Positions 14,967-29,970 of a stretch of 32,000 nucleotides of DNA are shown piece by piece. A program made the translations under genes and the position numbers. Every line of letters starts with the position of its first letter. Positions within the stretch are counted from its first letter, which is position 1. Source of the stretch: Wigglesworthia glossinidia endosymbiont of Glossina brevipalpis (GTDB taxonomy: Bacteria > Pseudomonadota > Gammaproteobacteria > Enterobacterales > Enterobacteriaceae); the NCBI GenBank assembly GCA_000008885.1, contig BA000021.3, positions 180,001 through 212,000 on the forward strand, read 5' to 3'. The notes under the pieces were generated by a model. That model searched no databases, was not told the origin of the DNA, and saw only the letters and a list, made by a program, of their open reading frames with translations.

Positions 14967-15579
14967 TTAATTTAATTTAAATAATTTTATATTAGTCCAT
15001 TTATTTAATATTTTTTTTGTAAAAAGTATTCCGTCTCTGCTTATAGAAGAAAATGTTAATACTTCTATATATATATTTTTTGTATGAGTTGTTTTTTCAA
15101 TATATTTTTTGAACAATGATAATTTTTTTTTTCTTTTTTCAAAATTTATTTTATCGGATTTGCTCAGTAATATTAAAACTGGAATTTTTAAATTAAAAGA
15201 TAAATATATTAATTTTTCATTAAATTCTGATACTGATCTTCTTATATCTTCTAATATAATTAGAATTTTTAAAGATTTGCGTGATTTAAAATAATCATCT
15301 AATAAATATTTAATTTTACTTTTTTTTTTTAGAAATTTTAGAATATCCAAATCCAGGTAAATCTATTATTCTTAATTTTTTATTCATGATAAACACATTA
15401 ATGAAATTTGTTCTCCCAGGTTTTTTACTGCTTATAGATATTTTTTTCTTATCGAATAAAGCGTTTATAGCCTTTGATTTTCCAGAATTAGAACGGCCAA
15501 AAAAAGCTATTTCTAATCCATTATCTTTTGGAAGATTAAATAAATTATTTGCACTTAACAAAAATTTTATATTATTCAT
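14967..15579 (-). pseudogene. engB: Ribosome-biogenesis GTPase EngB/YihA, split into two overlapping ORFs by a frameshift in an A11 tract (formally a pseudogene; may be rescued by slippage)
   Basis: ORF 15316..15579 carries G1 [16 protein letters not shown] and G3 DLPGFGY, then stops after KKKK. ORF 14967..15350 continues collinearly with E. coli EngB (..SLK.LIIL.DIR, then G4 LLSKSDK, then FSS). The two frames meet at the A11 tract (plus-strand T11, 15320-15330). Confidence 0.85.
15320..15330 (-). repeat. A11 homopolymer (T11 on the plus strand) at the engB frame break
   Basis: Counted directly. On the minus strand TCT + A11 + GTAA gives ...SKKKK*. A10 would read [15 protein letters not shown]..., which continues the EngB alignment. 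Confidence 0.9.
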
Positions 15580-15678
15580 TTTAATTATTTATATAATTTT
15601 AATATTATTAGTAATAAAAAATATTTTCAATAAATTAGAATGTTTTAAAAACCGTAAATAACAACCTAAAAATAACTT

Positions 15679-16113
15679 TTATTTTTTAAAATAAATACTA
15701 TTCATCCAACTATCTAGAATAATAACTGCTGATTCAGAATCAATCAATTTTTTTTTCAATCCTTTATATCCATATTTTTTGAATAAAACAGATTTTGCTT
15801 CAATCGTTGTTAAACGTTCGTCATGCATCATAACTGGCATAAAAAATTTATTTCTTAATTGTTTTGCAAATTTTTTGGCTTTAATTGTAGACGTCTGATA
15901 ACTTCCATCCATATTAAGAGGTAATCCTACTATAATATATTTTGGTTCCCATAATAATATTATGTTATTTATTTTTCCCCAGTTTGGCACTCCTTTTACA
16001 TAAGATACTGATTCTAATGGTTTAGAAGTATTTGTTTTCATTTGCCCAATCGCAACTCCTATATTTTTTGTTCCAAAATCAAATGATATTAATAAATTAT
16101 TTCTATACATCAT
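15679..16113 (-). CDS. ruvX: Putative pre-16S rRNA nuclease / Holliday-junction-resolvase-like protein YqgF
   Basis: 144 aa. The N-terminal FDFGTKNIGVAIG motif and DER.TT.EA match E. coli YqgF. ATGA overlap with the yqgE stop (16110-16113). In gshB-yqgE-yqgF synteny. Confidence 0.93.
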   Translation of the reverse strand: MMYRNNLLISFDFGTKNIGVAIGQMKTNTSKPLESVSYVKGVPNWGKINNIILLWEPKYIIVGLPLNMDGSYQTSTIKAKKFAKQLRNKFFMPVMMHDERLTTIEAKSVLFKKYGYKGLKKKLIDSESAVIILDSWMNSIYFKK

Positions 16114-16673
16114 GAGTGACCTATTTCACTAGATATATTTCTAATATCTATTCCTATAATTTTTGCAGATTCATACCATCTATCATAAATTGGAGTATTA
16201 AATAAAATTTTTAAGTTGGCTAAAGTTGTAATCCATGCATTATGTATAACTTCTTGTTCCAATTGCCCCTTTCCCCATTCAGAACACCCTAGAGCAACTA
16301 ATATTTTTTCTGGTTGAGAAGAAGTTCCTATTGTATTAAAAATATCATTTGATGTTGTAATTGTTATTTCTCTAGAAATATTTACGCTTGATTTAAAACT
16401 GTAACATGGAGAATGTAAAATAAAACTACGATCATCACTCAATGGTCCTCCAAATAGAACTGGATGATTTAATTTATCCATATCAATATTTTTTTCTATA
16501 TTTATTTTAAGTTTATTTAAAATATTTTTTATTGTATATTTATGAATAGGTTTATTTATTAAAATACCCATCGCTCCTTCTGTGCTATGTTGATATATAT
16601 AAACAACAGATCTCCTAAACAATGGATTTTTTATAGATGGCATTGCTATAAGAAAATGATGTTTTAAATTCAT
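16110..16673 (-). CDS. yqgE: UPF0301 protein YqgE
   Basis: 187 aa, the same length as E. coli YqgE. Its start [29 protein letters not shown] is almost collinear with E. coli [29 protein letters not shown]. Confidence 0.93.
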   Translation of the reverse strand: [187 protein letters not shown]

Positions 16674-16753
16674 ATATTTTATACTTTTATAATTAAAAAT
16701 TTATTTTAAATAATATTATTATACAATTTTTATTGATAAAAATTATAAAATAT

Positions 16754-17723: not shown

Positions 17724-18451
17724 TTAAAAATCTCCAAAATACATTTGTAAAATAGAAACTATTGATATTACGCTTGTTTCTGTTCTTAAAATTCTTGGAC
17801 CAAATTTAATCTTATTAAAATTATTTTTTTCTACATGAAATACTTCTTCTTTAGAAAGACCACCTTCTGGTCCAATCAATAAATTAATATTTTTTATTTT
17901 TTGATTTATTTCTTTTATTTTTTTTTCAGAATAAGGATCGGCATAAATTTTAAAAGAAGTGCTTTTTGTATCACACCATTTATATATGGATATTGGATCA
18001 TTTATTTTTAACAAAAAATTTCTTCCGCATTGCTGAGAAGATTGAATAATGATTTTTTCCCAACGATCAATTATTTTATTTAAATTTTTTTTATTTAAAA
18101 ATTCGTTGGAACGTGAAGAAAATAATGGAGTTAATGTATGTATTCCAAGCTCAACAGATTTTTGTACTAAAAAATCCATGCTTTTTTTATTACATAAAAC
18201 TTGCCCTAAATTTATTTTCAAAGTAGATTCGACATATTTGTGTATTTGATGCATTAAGAATATATATGTATTTTTATTTTTATATTTTAAAATTTTTCCT
18301 AGGAATTCTTTTTCTTTTCCATTAAATATCAAAACAAGCATTCCTTTTTTTTTTCTTAAAGAAAATCTTAAATGAGAAGTAGAATCTTCTGAAAGTAAAA
18401 TTATTTGTTTTTTTTTAATAAAAAATTAACATATATTCTAGGAATTTTCAT
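17724..18451 (-). CDS. rsmE: 16S rRNA (uracil1498-N3)-methyltransferase RsmE; the first 16 codons are out of frame with the body across an A9 tract
   Basis: The track ORF 17724..18341 matches E. coli RsmE from about residue 40 (LGQV....K..F..QKS.ELG....TPLFS, QCGRN, LLIGPEGGLS..E, GPR.LRTET). ATG 18451 encodes MKIPRIYV (E. coli MRIPRIYH) and stops at 18403..18401. The body frame is open from 18425. With one extra A the product is 242 aa, against 243 aa in E. coli. Confidence 0.85.
18408..18416 (-). repeat. A9 homopolymer (T9 on the plus strand) at the rsmE frame break
   Basis: Counted directly. Minus strand reads TTA TTA AAA AAA AAC AAA TAA. With A10 it reads ...LLKKKQIILLSEDSTSHLRFSLRKKKGMLVLIFNG, which is continuous with the main ORF. 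Confidence 0.9.
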
Positions 18452-23740: not shown

Positions 23741-25596
23741 ATGAAAAAAATAAATAAATATTTTAATAAACGTGAAACAGAATCAAAAATATTTTTGCAA
23801 AGAATAATGATATCTTTTTTTTTATTATATTTTTAACTGTGATATTAATTTCTAATCTATATTATCTTCAAATATTTTGTTTTTCTATGTATCAAACCAA
23901 ATCTAATGATAATCGAATAAAAATAATTTCTATTCCTCCATCAAGAGGCACTATTTCAGATAGAAACGGAAATTTATTAGCATTGAATCGTACTATTTAT
24001 CAATTAGAAATTAATTTAAAACAAGTTGAAAATATCGAAAAAACTATAAAAGAACTAAAATCAGTAGTTGACTTAAATCAATCAGATATTTTTTATTTTG
24101 AAAAAGAAAGAAAAAAATATAATTATTTAAATAAATTTTTAATAAAATCAAATCTTACAGATATTCAACATGCTAGGTTTTCTATAAATCAATATAGATT
24201 TCCTGGAGTGCATGTCAAAAATTATCAAACAAGGTATTATCCTTATGGAGAGGATATAGCACATGTAATTGGATATGTATCTCAAATAAGCAATAAAGAC
24301 ATGATATGCTTAAGTTACAACAAAGATCTTTTAAATTATTATAAAACAAAATCGGTAGGAAAAATAGGAATAGAAAAATTTTATGAAAAAAAATTACATG
24401 GACAACCTGGATTTAAAGAAGTAGAGGTAAACAGCAAAGGTAAAATAATAAGACAACTTAGATTTTTTCCTCCTCAACCAGGAAAAAATATAATATTAAC
24501 ATTAGATTTAAATATACAAAAATATATTAAAAATTTAATATCTTCAATTCGCGCAGCAGTAGTAGTTATAGATCCAAGAGACGGAGGAATATTAGCTTTG
24601 GTATCTAATCCAAGTTACGATCCTAATATATTTGTAAATGGAATTTCTAACAAAAAATATTTAGAATTATTAACAAATTTAGATCGTCCATTTATAAATA
24701 GAACAACACAAGGGACTTATCCTCCTGCTTCTACAATAAAGCCATATATTTTAATTTCTGCATTACATTCAGGAATAATTAATACAAACTTTTTTTTGTT
24801 TGATCCAGGTTGGTGGAAATTACCTGGATCAGAAAAAAAATATAGAGATTGGAAAAAATGGGGCCATGGTTATTTAAATATAACAAAAGCTATAGAAGAA
24901 TCTTCTGATACTTTTTTTTATCAAATTGCATATAATATGGGAATAGATAGGTTGTCAGAATGGATGAAAAAATTTGGATATGGAACATATACTGGTATTG
25001 ATATTTCAGAAGAAAGCATAGGTGTGATGCCGAATAGAGATTGGAAATTAAAATACATAAAAGATCCTTGGTATCAAGGAGATACAATTTCTGTAGGAAT
25101 AGGACAAGGATATTGGACAGCAACTCCTATTCAAATATCAAAATCATTAATGACACTAATAAATAATGGATTAGTAAAAAATCCTCATTTATTATACGGA
25201 ATTTTAGAAAAAGATAATAAATTTATTCCATACTTTCAATCTAAATATTTACAAATAGGAGACCCGAGATCTAATTTTTGGGAAATAGTAAAAAATGGAA
25301 TGTATGGAGTGGCAAATCATTCTAATGGAACAGCATATAAAAATTTTTATGATGCAAAATATAAAATAGCTGCTAAATCTGGAACAGCTCAATTATTTAG
25401 TTTACAGCCAAACGAAATATACGATCCTAAAAAATTGTCTACTCAATTTAAAGATCATAAACTGATGACTGCATTTGCTCCGTTTAATAACCCTACCGTA
25501 TGTATTGTAGTTATTTTAGAAAACGGCGGAGACTATCTTTCTGCTGGAGAAATTTCAAGAAAAATATTAGATTATATTTTATTAAAAAAATCATAA
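23741..25596 (+). CDS. mrdA: Peptidoglycan D,D-transpeptidase PBP2; the N-terminal cytoplasmic tail and first half of the membrane anchor are out of frame with the body (T9 tract)
   Basis: The track ORF (GTG 23839..25596) is collinear with E. coli PBP2 from inside the membrane anchor onward (NLY.LQI, NRIK..PI.PSRG.I.DRNG, STIKP, EESSDTFFYQ, KSGTAQ). ATG 23741 encodes MKKINKYFNKRETESKIFLQRIMISFFLLYF*, which is collinear with E. coli MKLQNSFRDYTAESALFVRRALVAFLGILLL. The frames differ by one nt. Confidence 0.88.
23815..23823 (+). repeat. T9 homopolymer at the mrdA frame break
   Basis: Counted directly (ATA TCT + T-run). With T10 the reading is ...RIMISFFFIIFLTVILISNLYYLQI, which gives one continuous TM helix. 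A nearby T5 run (23830-23834) is an alternative shift site. Confidence 0.8.
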
Positions 25597-29760: not shown

Positions 29761-29970
29761 TTAAATAGTAGTAACATGAGCAGCTGAAGGGCCTTTAGCC
29801 CCATTAGTAATCTCAAATTCTACACGTTGACCTTCTGCAAGAGTTTTAAAACCATTGCTTTGAATAGCAGAAAAATGTACAAATACATCTTTACTACCAT
29901 CTTCTGGAGTAATAAACCCAAATCCTTTAGATTCGTTAAACCATTTTACATTACCTTTAATTTTAGACAT
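29761..29970 (-). CDS. cspE: Cold-shock-domain protein CspE
   Basis: 69 aa. It differs from my recollection of E. coli CspE at only about 5 positions. RNP1 KGFGFI and RNP2 VFVHF are present. AAGGTAAG Shine-Dalgarno motif upstream. It neighbours lipA as in E. coli. Confidence 0.96.

What the first reader, a model, noticed from the sequence alone, without database searches (positions are those of the whole stretch)
15311..15350. engB (essential ribosome-assembly GTPase in E. coli) split in two by an A11 run
The G1 (GRSNSGKS) and G3 (DLPGFG) motifs lie in ORF 15316..15579. The G4 motif (SKSD) and the rest lie in ORF 14967..15350, one frame away. The switch point is the minus-strand A11 (plus-strand T11, 15320-15330). 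As written it reads ...[10 protein letters not shown]. With A10 it reads ...[38 protein letters not shown]..., collinear with E. coli ...[36 protein letters not shown]. Neither half can be a GTPase alone. EngB/YihA is essential in E. coli and is usually kept in reduced genomes. A functional product therefore needs an RNA or ribosome shift of -1 or +2 nt.
Basis: partly seen in the sequence, partly recalled or inferred. Interest (0 to 1): 0.65.

Follow-up and report, generated by a model that had tools for sequence, protein, structure and literature searches.

The report
Poly(A) frameshift splitting symbiont engB gene
In the tsetse-fly symbiont Wigglesworthia, the ribosome-assembly GTPase gene engB is broken by a run of 11 A's, the kind of break that AT-rich insect symbionts are already known to survive because RNA polymerase (or the ribosome) slips on such runs, so this is a real but largely ordinary example.

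Summary
The window comes from the 697,724-bp Wigglesworthia glossinidia (Glossina brevipalpis) genome. A minus-strand A11 at 15320-15330 splits engB/yihA into an 87-aa ORF (G1-G3) and a 117-codon out-of-frame remainder (G4-G5). Only the fusion passes the EngB equivalog cutoff.

A10 or A13 restores the frame. A13, not A10, is gap-free against E. coli EngB. The original GenBank protein (BAC24309.1/Q8D338) is the A10 fusion.

This is the only lesion in the gene. The restored frame is open for 117 codons (0 of 20,000 shuffles).

W. morsitans and two related lineages carry a different engB frameshift, a shared A10 tract about 45 codons downstream. Their downstream sequence is still under purifying selection in the restored frame. 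Wigglesworthia therefore tolerates such frameshifts in engB.

Most likely mechanism: transcriptional slippage, perhaps with ribosome sliding, gives a minority of full-length EngB. This is already known in Buchnera, Blochmannia and Citrobacter tssM1 (also A11). I could not test it here.

A homopolymer miscount in the 2002 Sanger assembly is not excluded. rsmE and mrdA in the same window carry similar hidden frameshifts.

Verdict: new member of a known kind, modest interest.

The parts
15316..15579 (-). engB 5' reading frame: 87 codons plus stop, with G1 GRSNSGKS and G3 DLPGFG. It ends KKKK-TAA immediately after the tract.
   Evidence: ORF list. TIGR03598 positions 2-84, 110.3 bits, below the 124.45 cutoff.
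15320..15330 (-). A11 homopolymer (plus-strand T11). This is the frameshift site and the presumed slippage site. A10 or A13 restores the frame.
   Evidence: Sequence. Homopolymer census: longest coding run in the window. Restored translations.
15316..15318 (-). 0-frame stop codon TAA, reached one codon (AAG) after the last full AAA codon of the tract.
   Evidence: Sequence.
14967..15320 (-). engB 3' part in the restored frame: AGT... [11 protein letters not shown]...SKSD...KLN, 117 codons plus stop, with G4 SKSD and G5 FSS.
   Evidence: ORF list. TIGR03598 positions 82-179. Open for 117 codons against 16 and 13 stops in the other frames, and 0 of 20,000 shuffles stop-free. Gap-free alignment to E. 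coli EngB 1PUI when read as A13.

Best explanation
The window is part of the Wigglesworthia glossinidia brevipalpis chromosome. Its single engB/yihA gene carries a genuine length change in a lysine-coding poly(A) tract: A11 where A13 (ancestral length) or A10 would be in frame.

Inferred: the gene is still used. During transcription RNA polymerase slips on the 11-nt A:T homopolymer and makes mRNAs with varying numbers of A's. The A10 and A13 species encode full-length EngB of 203 or 204 aa. Ribosome sliding on the A11 run may add to this. The unslipped mRNA gives an 87-aa dead-end peptide that terminates right after the tract. The net effect is a reduced level of EngB, which the symbiont tolerates.

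Shown here: the anatomy, the single lesion, the intact downstream frame, and tolerance with purifying selection of an analogous engB frameshift in sister lineages.

Not shown here: slippage itself, its efficiency, and the presence of full-length protein.
For: Organism and gene:
- The A10 fusion is 100% identical to BAC24309.1/Q8D338, 'yihA' of W. glossinidia (G. brevipalpis), recorded on a 697,724-nt contig.
- Neighbouring window proteins (RuvX, NadD, ArnT and others) are recorded on the same contig.
- No second EngB of this organism is among the hits.

Single lesion:
- The two halves are collinear on TIGR03598, and only the fusion passes the cutoff.
- The restored frame is open for 117 codons.
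- G4 and G5 are kept, and the A13 form aligns gap-free to E. coli EngB.

The genus tolerates this:
- W. morsitans CP003315 (L084), L002 and L003 share an A10 frameshift at a different tract in engB.
- Adding one A gives a full-length 207-aa EngB with its stop in the expected place.
- Downstream of that frameshift, in the restored frame, omega is 0.06-0.28, against 0.17-0.23 upstream.
- Differences by codon position are 5/2/9, 6/4/15 and 3/3/14. Synonymous excess has p = 0.02, 6e-6 and 8e-6.

Experimental precedents:
- Citrobacter tssM1: a genomic A11 gives mRNAs with 10-15 A's and about 20% restoration of the same frame, the one reached by deleting one A (PMC4256274).
- Buchnera and Blochmannia: 12-50% of transcripts corrected at long poly(A) runs (PMC5009743; PMC3017870).
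- E. coli ribosomes slide robustly on A11 but little on A9 or A10 (PMC4363877).
- Rio et al. proposed such rescue for W. morsitans pseudogenes that carry 1-2 indels (PMC3280448).

Data quality:
- An independent Logan contig (L085) is 100% identical to window 15652-16697, including an A9 run.
- The W. morsitans frameshift, from a Sanger shotgun genome, is reproduced in two independent assemblies.
Against: - No transcript, protein or read-level data for W. brevipalpis could be reached. The A11 count rests on one assembly.
- Site 1 is frameshifted only in this lineage, so its age is unknown.
- For window versus relatives, omega downstream is 0.42-0.48 against about 0.2 upstream. The C-terminal half is also the faster half in intact comparisons, and dS is near saturation.
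- Baranov et al. found that in W. glossinidia A/T runs are equally frequent in coding and non-coding DNA. They read this as suggesting that transcriptional slippage does not occur there (PMC1088944).
- Rescue here needs -1 or +2 nt, whereas the simplest slip (+1) gives a dead frame.
- Three homopolymer frameshifts in 32 kb (engB, rsmE, mrdA) is a high density compared with the 8 pseudogenes reported for the genome. That is also what assembly errors would look like.
Confidence: 0.52

Rival explanations
1. Assembly artefact. The true genome has an in-frame tract (A10 or A13), and the 2002 Sanger shotgun consensus miscounted the homopolymer. Nothing unusual happens in the cell.
For: - The deposited protein BAC24309.1 is the in-frame A10 reading, not what the DNA encodes.
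- Two other genes in the same 32 kb (rsmE at an A9, mrdA at a T9) are also off by one nucleotide at homopolymers. This density is well above the 8 pseudogenes reported for the genome.
- No independent assembly covering the tract could be found.
Against: - The submitters kept A11 in the consensus although they wanted a full-length protein. This suggests their traces supported A11 (inference).
- An independent run reproduces 1,046 adjacent bases exactly, including an A9 run.
- The W. morsitans Sanger genome reports a poly(A) frameshift in the same gene, and two independent assemblies confirm it.
- Relative to its relatives the window is 2 nt short, so an error would have to be -2 on A13, or +1 on an allele that had already lost one codon.
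Confidence: 0.18
2. Recent pseudogene. The frameshift is real and not rescued to a useful level. engB is being lost in this lineage and has not yet accumulated further damage.
For: - Homopolymer indels are the usual first step of gene erosion in symbionts (PMC3017870).
- The frameshift at this site is unique to this lineage.
- Omega downstream is somewhat higher for the window (0.42-0.48) than for intact comparisons (about 0.25).
Against: - There is no second lesion in 203 codons. The restored frame is open for 117 codons in a roughly 20% GC gene where the other frames hold 13-16 stops.
- All GTPase motifs are retained.
- EngB is kept intact in Buchnera and Blochmannia.
- EngB is kept under purifying selection, despite a frameshift, in the W. 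morsitans group.
- No second copy is seen.
Confidence: 0.1
3. Rescue is mainly translational. Ribosomes pause and slide on the A11 lysine run and re-enter the +1 frame (K-K-K then AGU Ser). Transcriptional slippage is minor.
For: - In a reconstituted E. coli system A11 gives robust ribosome sliding, while A9 and A10 give little (PMC4363877).
- The 0-frame stop lies directly after the tract.
- tRNA-Lys can re-pair perfectly anywhere in the run.
Against: - Sliding is unfocused and mostly yields truncated products.
- There is no stimulatory downstream structure: fold z = -0.56. No Shine-Dalgarno-like element precedes the tract.
- For bacterial A11 (tssM1) and for symbiont tracts, the measured heterogeneity was in the mRNA.
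- The sister-clade frameshift sits on A10, where sliding was weak.
Confidence: 0.08
4. DNA-level heterogeneity. The tract length varies among genome copies or cells through replication slippage. A11 is only the consensus, and in-frame A10 or A13 copies supply EngB.
For: - Replication slippage at long A/T runs, giving heterogeneous genomes ('pseudo pseudogenes'), is discussed as an alternative by Baranov et al..
- Homopolymers are indel hotspots in symbionts.
Against: - There is no evidence for a mixture in any sequence available here.
- In the W. morsitans group the out-of-frame A10 length is identical in three diverged lineages. That argues for a stable genomic length rather than rapid switching.
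Confidence: 0.06

Closest known systems
Poly(A)-tract frameshifts in Buchnera and Blochmannia genes rescued by transcriptional slippage (Tamas et al. 2008; Wernegreen et al. 2010; summarised in PMC3017870 and PMC5009743)
   Same: - AT-rich obligate insect symbiont.
- A single indel in a tract of 9 or more A's inside an otherwise intact housekeeping gene.
- Information-processing genes are affected (dnaX, dnaG and pth there; engB here).
- Some frameshifts are conserved between species without gene decay, as seen here for the W. morsitans-group engB site.
   Different: - Different genus and gene.
- Slippage has not been measured in Wigglesworthia.
- The window's site is lineage-specific rather than shown to be conserved.
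- Rescue needs -1 or +2 nt rather than the single insertion.
Citrobacter rodentium tssM1 transcriptional frameshifting on an A11 tract (PMC4256274)
   Same: - Enterobacterial RNA polymerase and the same tract length (A11).
- The same frame is needed, the one restored by deleting one A or adding two.
- mRNAs with 10-15 A's and about 20% full-length product were measured.
   Different: - There both the short and the long product are needed, and their ratio matters.
- Here the 87-aa product has no plausible function, and the 0-frame stop abuts the tract instead of lying 28 nt downstream.
W. glossinidia morsitans yihA (WP_041944130.1, annotated as a 141-aa truncated protein; CP003315)
   Same: Same gene, same genus, and a poly(A) frameshift as the only lesion. 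The downstream part is conserved in the restored frame.
   Different: - Different tract: A10, about 45 codons further downstream, between G3 and G4.
- Needs +1 or -2 nt.
- Shared by three lineages.
- The window's site 1 is in frame there (A8-T-A3).
Ribosome sliding on homopolymeric A (PMC4363877)
   Same: Iterated AAA lysine codons. A11 is the threshold length for robust sliding in the E. coli system.
   Different: It was described as a cause of lost output, not as a rescue route. It is not known in symbionts.
Programmed ribosomal frameshifts (prfB +1, dnaX -1)
   Same: A slippery run with an adjacent 0-frame stop. The shift is needed to make the full-length product.
   Different: - No conserved stimulators: no Shine-Dalgarno-like element and no structure.
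- The site is not conserved in other Wigglesworthia.
- The A AAA AAG -1 shift of dnaX type leads to a dead frame here.

Membership tests
EngB/YihA/YsxC ribosome-biogenesis GTPase (NCBIfam TIGR03598 equivalog) | Whole-protein score above the curated equivalog cutoff (124.45 bits) | tested here: met
   The A10 fusion scores 171.4 bits over profile positions 2-179. Neither half alone passes (110.3 and 56.4 bits).
EngB/YihA/YsxC ribosome-biogenesis GTPase (NCBIfam TIGR03598 equivalog) | G1 (GxxxxGKS), G3 (DxxG) and G4 ([NTS]KxD) motifs, collinear with solved EngB structures | tested here: met
   [12 protein letters not shown] and SKSD are present. The A13 form aligns gap-free to E. coli EngB 1PUI residues 10-197, E = 2.5e-38.
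EngB/YihA/YsxC ribosome-biogenesis GTPase (NCBIfam TIGR03598 equivalog) | GTPase activity and 50S-assembly function | not testable with these tools
   No biochemical or genetic data are available.
Symbiont poly(A)-tract frameshift rescued by transcriptional slippage (Tamas 2008 type) | Frameshift lies inside an A/T homopolymer of 9 nt or more | tested here: met
   A11 at 15320-15330, the longest coding run in the window.
Symbiont poly(A)-tract frameshift rescued by transcriptional slippage (Tamas 2008 type) | The indel is the only disabling lesion and the gene is otherwise intact | tested here: met
   The restored frame is open for 117 codons, motifs are kept, and the HMM match is collinear.
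Symbiont poly(A)-tract frameshift rescued by transcriptional slippage (Tamas 2008 type) | Frameshift persists across lineages with purifying selection on the downstream, out-of-frame part | tested here: inconclusive
   For the window's site only one genome exists. For the second engB site in three W. morsitans-group lineages the feature is met: omega 0.06-0.28, third-position-biased change, p down to 6e-6.
Symbiont poly(A)-tract frameshift rescued by transcriptional slippage (Tamas 2008 type) | mRNA tract length heterogeneous while genomic DNA is homogeneous | not testable with these tools
   No reads or cDNA were accessible. The only independent contig of this strain ends 73 nt before engB.
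Symbiont poly(A)-tract frameshift rescued by transcriptional slippage (Tamas 2008 type) | Full-length protein detectable | not testable with these tools
   No proteomic data are available.
Programmed ribosomal frameshift site (prfB/dnaX type) | Shift site and stimulators (upstream Shine-Dalgarno-like element, downstream structure) conserved among orthologues | tested here: not met
   Other Wigglesworthia read AAAAAAAATAAA in frame at this position. The 106 nt spanning the tract and the sequence downstream of it fold no better than shuffles, z = -0.56.
Eroding pseudogene | Several disabling mutations, loss of motifs, neutral substitution pattern | tested here: not met
   There is one lesion only. 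A very recent inactivation cannot be excluded.

The most novel reading that the evidence does not exclude
Out-of-frame poly(A) tracts in ribosome-biogenesis genes are not merely tolerated in Wigglesworthia. They are maintained by selection as a dosage or regulatory device. The evidence that prompts this: engB has been hit twice independently, at two different tracts in two clades, and the out-of-frame A10 has been kept unchanged across three diverged lineages. rsmE in this window is hit as well. Under this reading, slippage-dependent expression would set a low, condition-dependent level of assembly factors in a genome that has lost most transcriptional regulators.
Probability: 0.1. Interest if true: 0.7.

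Novelty: new member of a known kind. Interest (0 to 1): 0.35.

Why it matters
If the A11 is real, an essential ribosome-assembly GTPase in a 0.7-Mb symbiont genome is made only through decoding errors. [quoted passage not shown]

The practical consequences are for annotation. Databases currently show three inconsistent treatments of the same phenomenon:
- a silently fused protein (Q8D338);
- a truncated 141-aa 'YihA' in W. morsitans;
- N-terminally truncated RsmE and MrdA.

Gene-content comparisons and pseudogene counts for Wigglesworthia therefore probably understate homopolymer frameshifts.

The two independent engB frameshifts also give a natural test of whether such frameshifts are only tolerated or are selected.

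Tried and rejected
Searches for independent DNA of W. brevipalpis over the tract, all without result:
- Exact-product look-ups failed for the 203-aa fusion, the 87-aa ORF, RuvX and NadD.
- These look-ups are blind to the window's own genome. RuvX and NadD are NCBI proteins on the 697,724-nt contig, yet they are 'not on record'. I therefore withdrew my first reading as evidence about the DNA.
- Exact look-ups of the A9, A12 and A13 variants, the 87-aa ORF and the 127-aa ORF found nothing.
- The single genome-contig scan returned only one Wigglesworthia MAG, the same lineage as L001, plus distant EngB genes.
- A metagenome scan for the 33-nt flank found nothing.
- A Logan contig of the same strain (L085) was found through a RuvX cluster-mate, but it stops 73 nt short of engB.

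Literature:
- The supplementary pseudogene table of Rio et al. 2012 is not held.
- Tamas 2008, Wernegreen 2010 and Wagner 1990 are not held. I cite them only through papers that summarise them.

Ideas considered and rejected:
- Classical -1 frameshift on A AAA AAG: it leads to a dead frame.
- A downstream stimulatory RNA structure: z = -0.56.
- Independent translation of the C-terminal half from the TTG at 15350: there is no Shine-Dalgarno sequence, and a GTPase split between G3 and G4 is implausible.
- tRNA and Rfam scans of the window found nothing.

Limit on the selection test: dN/dS for window versus relatives is near saturation (dS about 1), so it cannot date the window's frameshift.

Full report
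**What is there**

The window is about 20% G+C. On the minus strand the sequence reads ...GAT TTA CCT GGA TTT GGA TAT TCT AAA ATT TCT AAA AAA AAA AAG TAA..., with eleven consecutive A's at 15320-15330. ORF 15316..15579(-) encodes 87 aa ending [13 protein letters not shown] 14967..15350(-) lies one frame away.

Against the NCBIfam equivalog for YihA/YsxC (TIGR03598, cutoff 124.45 bits):
- the 5' ORF matches profile positions 2-84 (110.3 bits);
- the 3' ORF matches positions 82-179 (56.4 bits);
- the fusion made by dropping one A matches positions 2-179 (171.4 bits).

Pfam gives the same picture for MMR_HSR1.

It is not a chance juxtaposition. From the tract to the natural stop the restored frame is open for 117 codons. 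The other two frames of that stretch contain 16 and 13 stops, and none of 20,000 composition-preserving shuffles is stop-free.

First, A10 restores the frame but gives a protein one residue shorter than its relatives. With A13 the protein aligns without a gap through the junction to E. coli EngB (PDB 1PUI, E = 2.5e-38) and to the other Wigglesworthia EngB sequences. The window is therefore effectively 2 nt short of the ancestral length.

Second, '-1 or +2 nt' is right for the RNA. For a ribosome the required event is +1 or -2. The dnaX-like -1 shift on A AAA AAG leads to VKLNIY*.

**Source organism and annotation**

The A10 fusion is 100% identical over its full length to BAC24309.1 / Swiss-Prot Q8D338. 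That entry is 'yihA' of Wigglesworthia glossinidia, the endosymbiont of Glossina brevipalpis, recorded on a 697,724-nt contig. Other proteins encoded in the window are recorded on the same contig: RuvX, NadD, YqgE, ArnT, LptE, LipB, the 205-aa RsmE and the 585-aa MrdA.

So the original submitters deposited a fused protein that the DNA as written does not encode. Only the GenBank and Swiss-Prot accessions are attached to it, with no WP_ accession. From this I infer that RefSeq does not predict an intact protein. No other EngB from this organism appears among the hits, so there is no sign of a second copy.

Gene order around engB is lon-clpX-clpP-tig ... nadA, arnC-arnA-arnD-arnT, engB, ruvX, yqgE, gshB, rsmE, leuS, lptE, holA, nadD, mrdA, mrdB, dacA, lipB, lipA, cspE-like, rlmB, purA.

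**Comparative evidence**

Four other Wigglesworthia engB loci were recovered, all in the same arnT-engB-ruvX context:
- L001/L004, a MAG that also appears in a Logan assembly;
- L002;
- L003;
- the finished W. morsitans chromosome CP003315, L084.

At the window's site all four read AAAAAAAATAAA (K-K-N-K) in frame. The A11 frameshift is therefore specific to the brevipalpis lineage.

W. morsitans, L002 and L003 are all frameshifted at a second tract about 45 codons downstream...TTA AAA AAA AAA TTC CTA..., an A10. In W. morsitans, RefSeq (WP_041944130.1) lists a truncated 141-aa 'YihA/YsxC'. Adding one A gives ...LKKKIPILFLLSKSDK..., a full-length 207-aa EngB with G4 and G5 and its stop at the expected place.

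Downstream of this shared frameshift, read in the restored frame, substitutions between the three lineages are strongly synonymous-biased:
- Differences at codon positions 1/2/3 are 5/2/9, 6/4/15 and 3/3/14.
- Omega is 0.06-0.28, against 0.17-0.23 upstream.
- The synonymous excess has one-sided binomial p = 0.02, 6e-6 and 8e-6. The three pairs are not independent.

The frameshift therefore predates the divergence of these lineages (dS about 0.2-0.5), and the out-of-frame part has continued to evolve as coding sequence. This is the pattern called 'ancient frameshifts maintained' in Blochmannia (summarised in PMC3017870). It shows that the genus can live with a poly(A) frameshift in this gene. 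The lineage L001 is intact at both sites.

**Window lineage alone**

For the window lineage by itself the selection test is uninformative. dS to any relative is about 1. Omega downstream (0.42-0.48) is higher than upstream (about 0.2). However, the C-terminal half is also the less conserved half in intact-versus-intact comparisons.

**Mechanism**

No test of RNA or protein was possible, so the mechanism is inferred from precedents.
- In Citrobacter rodentium tssM1 a genomic A11 yields mRNAs with 10-15 A's. About 20% of product is in the frame reached by deleting one A, which is exactly the frame needed here (PMC4256274).
- In Buchnera and Blochmannia 12-50% of transcripts are 'corrected' at long poly(A) runs (PMC5009743; PMC3017870).
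- Rio et al. noted that 6 of 11 W. morsitans pseudogenes have only 1-2 indels, and they suggested the same rescue (PMC3280448).
- E. coli ribosomes slide robustly on A11 but little on A9 or A10 (PMC4363877). This could contribute.

There is no sign of a programmed ribosomal site. The 106 nt spanning the tract and the sequence downstream of it fold no better than shuffles (z = -0.56). No Shine-Dalgarno-like element precedes the tract, and the site is not conserved.

One dissenting observation exists. Baranov et al. found that A/T runs are equally frequent in coding and non-coding DNA of W. glossinidia, and they suggested that slippage does not occur there (PMC1088944). Weak selection would explain the same pattern.

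**Rivals**

The main rival is a homopolymer miscount in the 2002 Sanger assembly. I could not exclude it. Every route to independent DNA over the tract failed, and the look-up tool turned out to be blind to the window's own genome.

Points in favour of an error:
- The same window holds two more homopolymer frame breaks, described under 'Noticed in passing' below.
- That makes 3 of about 27 genes, or 3 of 34 coding runs of 9 or more. The genome as a whole is reported to have 8 pseudogenes.

Points against an error:
- The submitters left A11 in the consensus although they annotated a full-length protein.
- A Logan contig from an independent run (SRR22299856, L085) is 100% identical to window 15652-16697, including an A9 run.
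- The W. morsitans genome, also a Sanger shotgun assembly, reports an engB frameshift that two independent assemblies reproduce.

A recent, unrescued pseudogene is made less likely by the absence of any second lesion. It is also made less likely because EngB is retained in Buchnera, Blochmannia and the other Wigglesworthia. Tract-length heteroplasmy at the DNA level is possible but unsupported.

**Noticed in passing: rsmE and mrdA**

rsmE begins at 18451(-) with MKIPRIYVNFLLKK, the canonical RsmE N-terminus. It leaves the frame at a minus-strand A9 (18408-18416). The annotated protein is the 205-aa remainder.
- The A10 fusion matches NF008690 positions 1-241 and passes the NF008692 cutoff (210.8 against 196 bits).
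- The 205-aa form matches positions 40-241 and fails that cutoff (186 bits).

mrdA begins at 23741(+) with MKKINKYFNKRETESKIFLQRIMISFF. It leaves the frame at a T9 (23815-23823). The annotated protein is the 585-aa GTG-start remainder.
- The T10 fusion matches NF008061 positions 1-615 (959.9 bits).
- The truncated form matches positions 35-615 (931.7 bits).

Both genes need +1 or -2 nt.

**Novelty and verdict**

The kind of feature is well known, and it had already been suggested for Wigglesworthia. No paper in the searched library links engB/yihA with such a frameshift.

What appears new:
- engB is hit independently at two tracts in two Wigglesworthia clades.
- There is clear purifying selection after the older event.
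- Further frameshifts in this genome are hidden behind truncated gene calls.

I rate this a new member of a known kind, with interest about 0.35. My confidence is about 0.5 that the A11 is real and rescued mainly by transcriptional slippage, and about 0.2 that it is an assembly error.

Noticed in passing
window 18401-18451 and 17724-18425 (minus strand); tract 18408-18416: rsmE (16S rRNA m3U1498 methyltransferase) is also frameshifted at a poly(A) tract. The canonical N-terminus MKIPRIYVNFLLKK is in one frame. The rest, annotated as a 205-aa protein from an internal ATG, is in another. The switch is at an A9, and A10 restores a 242-aa protein. That protein matches the RsmE profile from position 1 and passes a curated cutoff that the truncated form fails. 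W. morsitans rsmE is intact.
   Followed up: yes
window 23741-23838 and 23839-25596 (plus strand); tract 23815-23823: mrdA (PBP2) has its first 27 codons (MKKINKYFNKRETESKIFLQRIMISFF, cytoplasmic tail and start of the membrane anchor) in a different frame from the annotated 585-aa GTG-start ORF. The switch is at a T9. T10 gives a 618-aa protein that matches the MrdA profile from position 1 (959.9 against 931.7 bits).
   Followed up: yes
L084 3396-3405 (W. morsitans CP003315), L002 3396-3405, L003 about 1057-1066: engB of three W. morsitans-group lineages shares an out-of-frame A10 between G3 and G4. The downstream part is conserved in the restored frame with synonymous-biased change. RefSeq lists only a truncated 141-aa YihA (WP_041944130.1).
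   Followed up: yes
window, whole: There are 43 A/T runs of 9 or more in 32 kb, against about 22 expected from a first-order Markov model. Only two runs reach 11 and none is longer, against 4.4 expected at 11 or more. Runs of 8-9 are over-represented, and the distribution looks cut off at 11. This fits Baranov et al.'s remark that very long runs are selected against in this genome.
   Followed up: partly
window 15123-15132 (minus strand): engB contains a second long tract, an in-frame A10 (E-K-R-K-K-K-L) in its 3' half. Transcripts or ribosomes that pass the A11 correctly meet another slippery run about 190 nt later.
   Followed up: no
L001/L002/L084 between gshB and ruvX, compared with window 16110-16673: yqgE (187 aa) is present between gshB and ruvX in the window. 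No gene is called at that position in the three other Wigglesworthia loci, where the gap is only about 130-210 nt. This suggests lineage-specific loss.
   Followed up: no
L085 (Logan SRR22299856 contig, 1,046 nt) = window 15652-16697: An independent public sequencing run contains this exact strain at 100% identity. Its raw reads should settle the true length of the engB, rsmE and mrdA tracts.
   Followed up: partly
window 29761-29970 (minus strand): A 69-aa CspE-like cold-shock protein gene lies between lipA and rlmB. It falls below the 80-aa ORF listing threshold.
   Followed up: no
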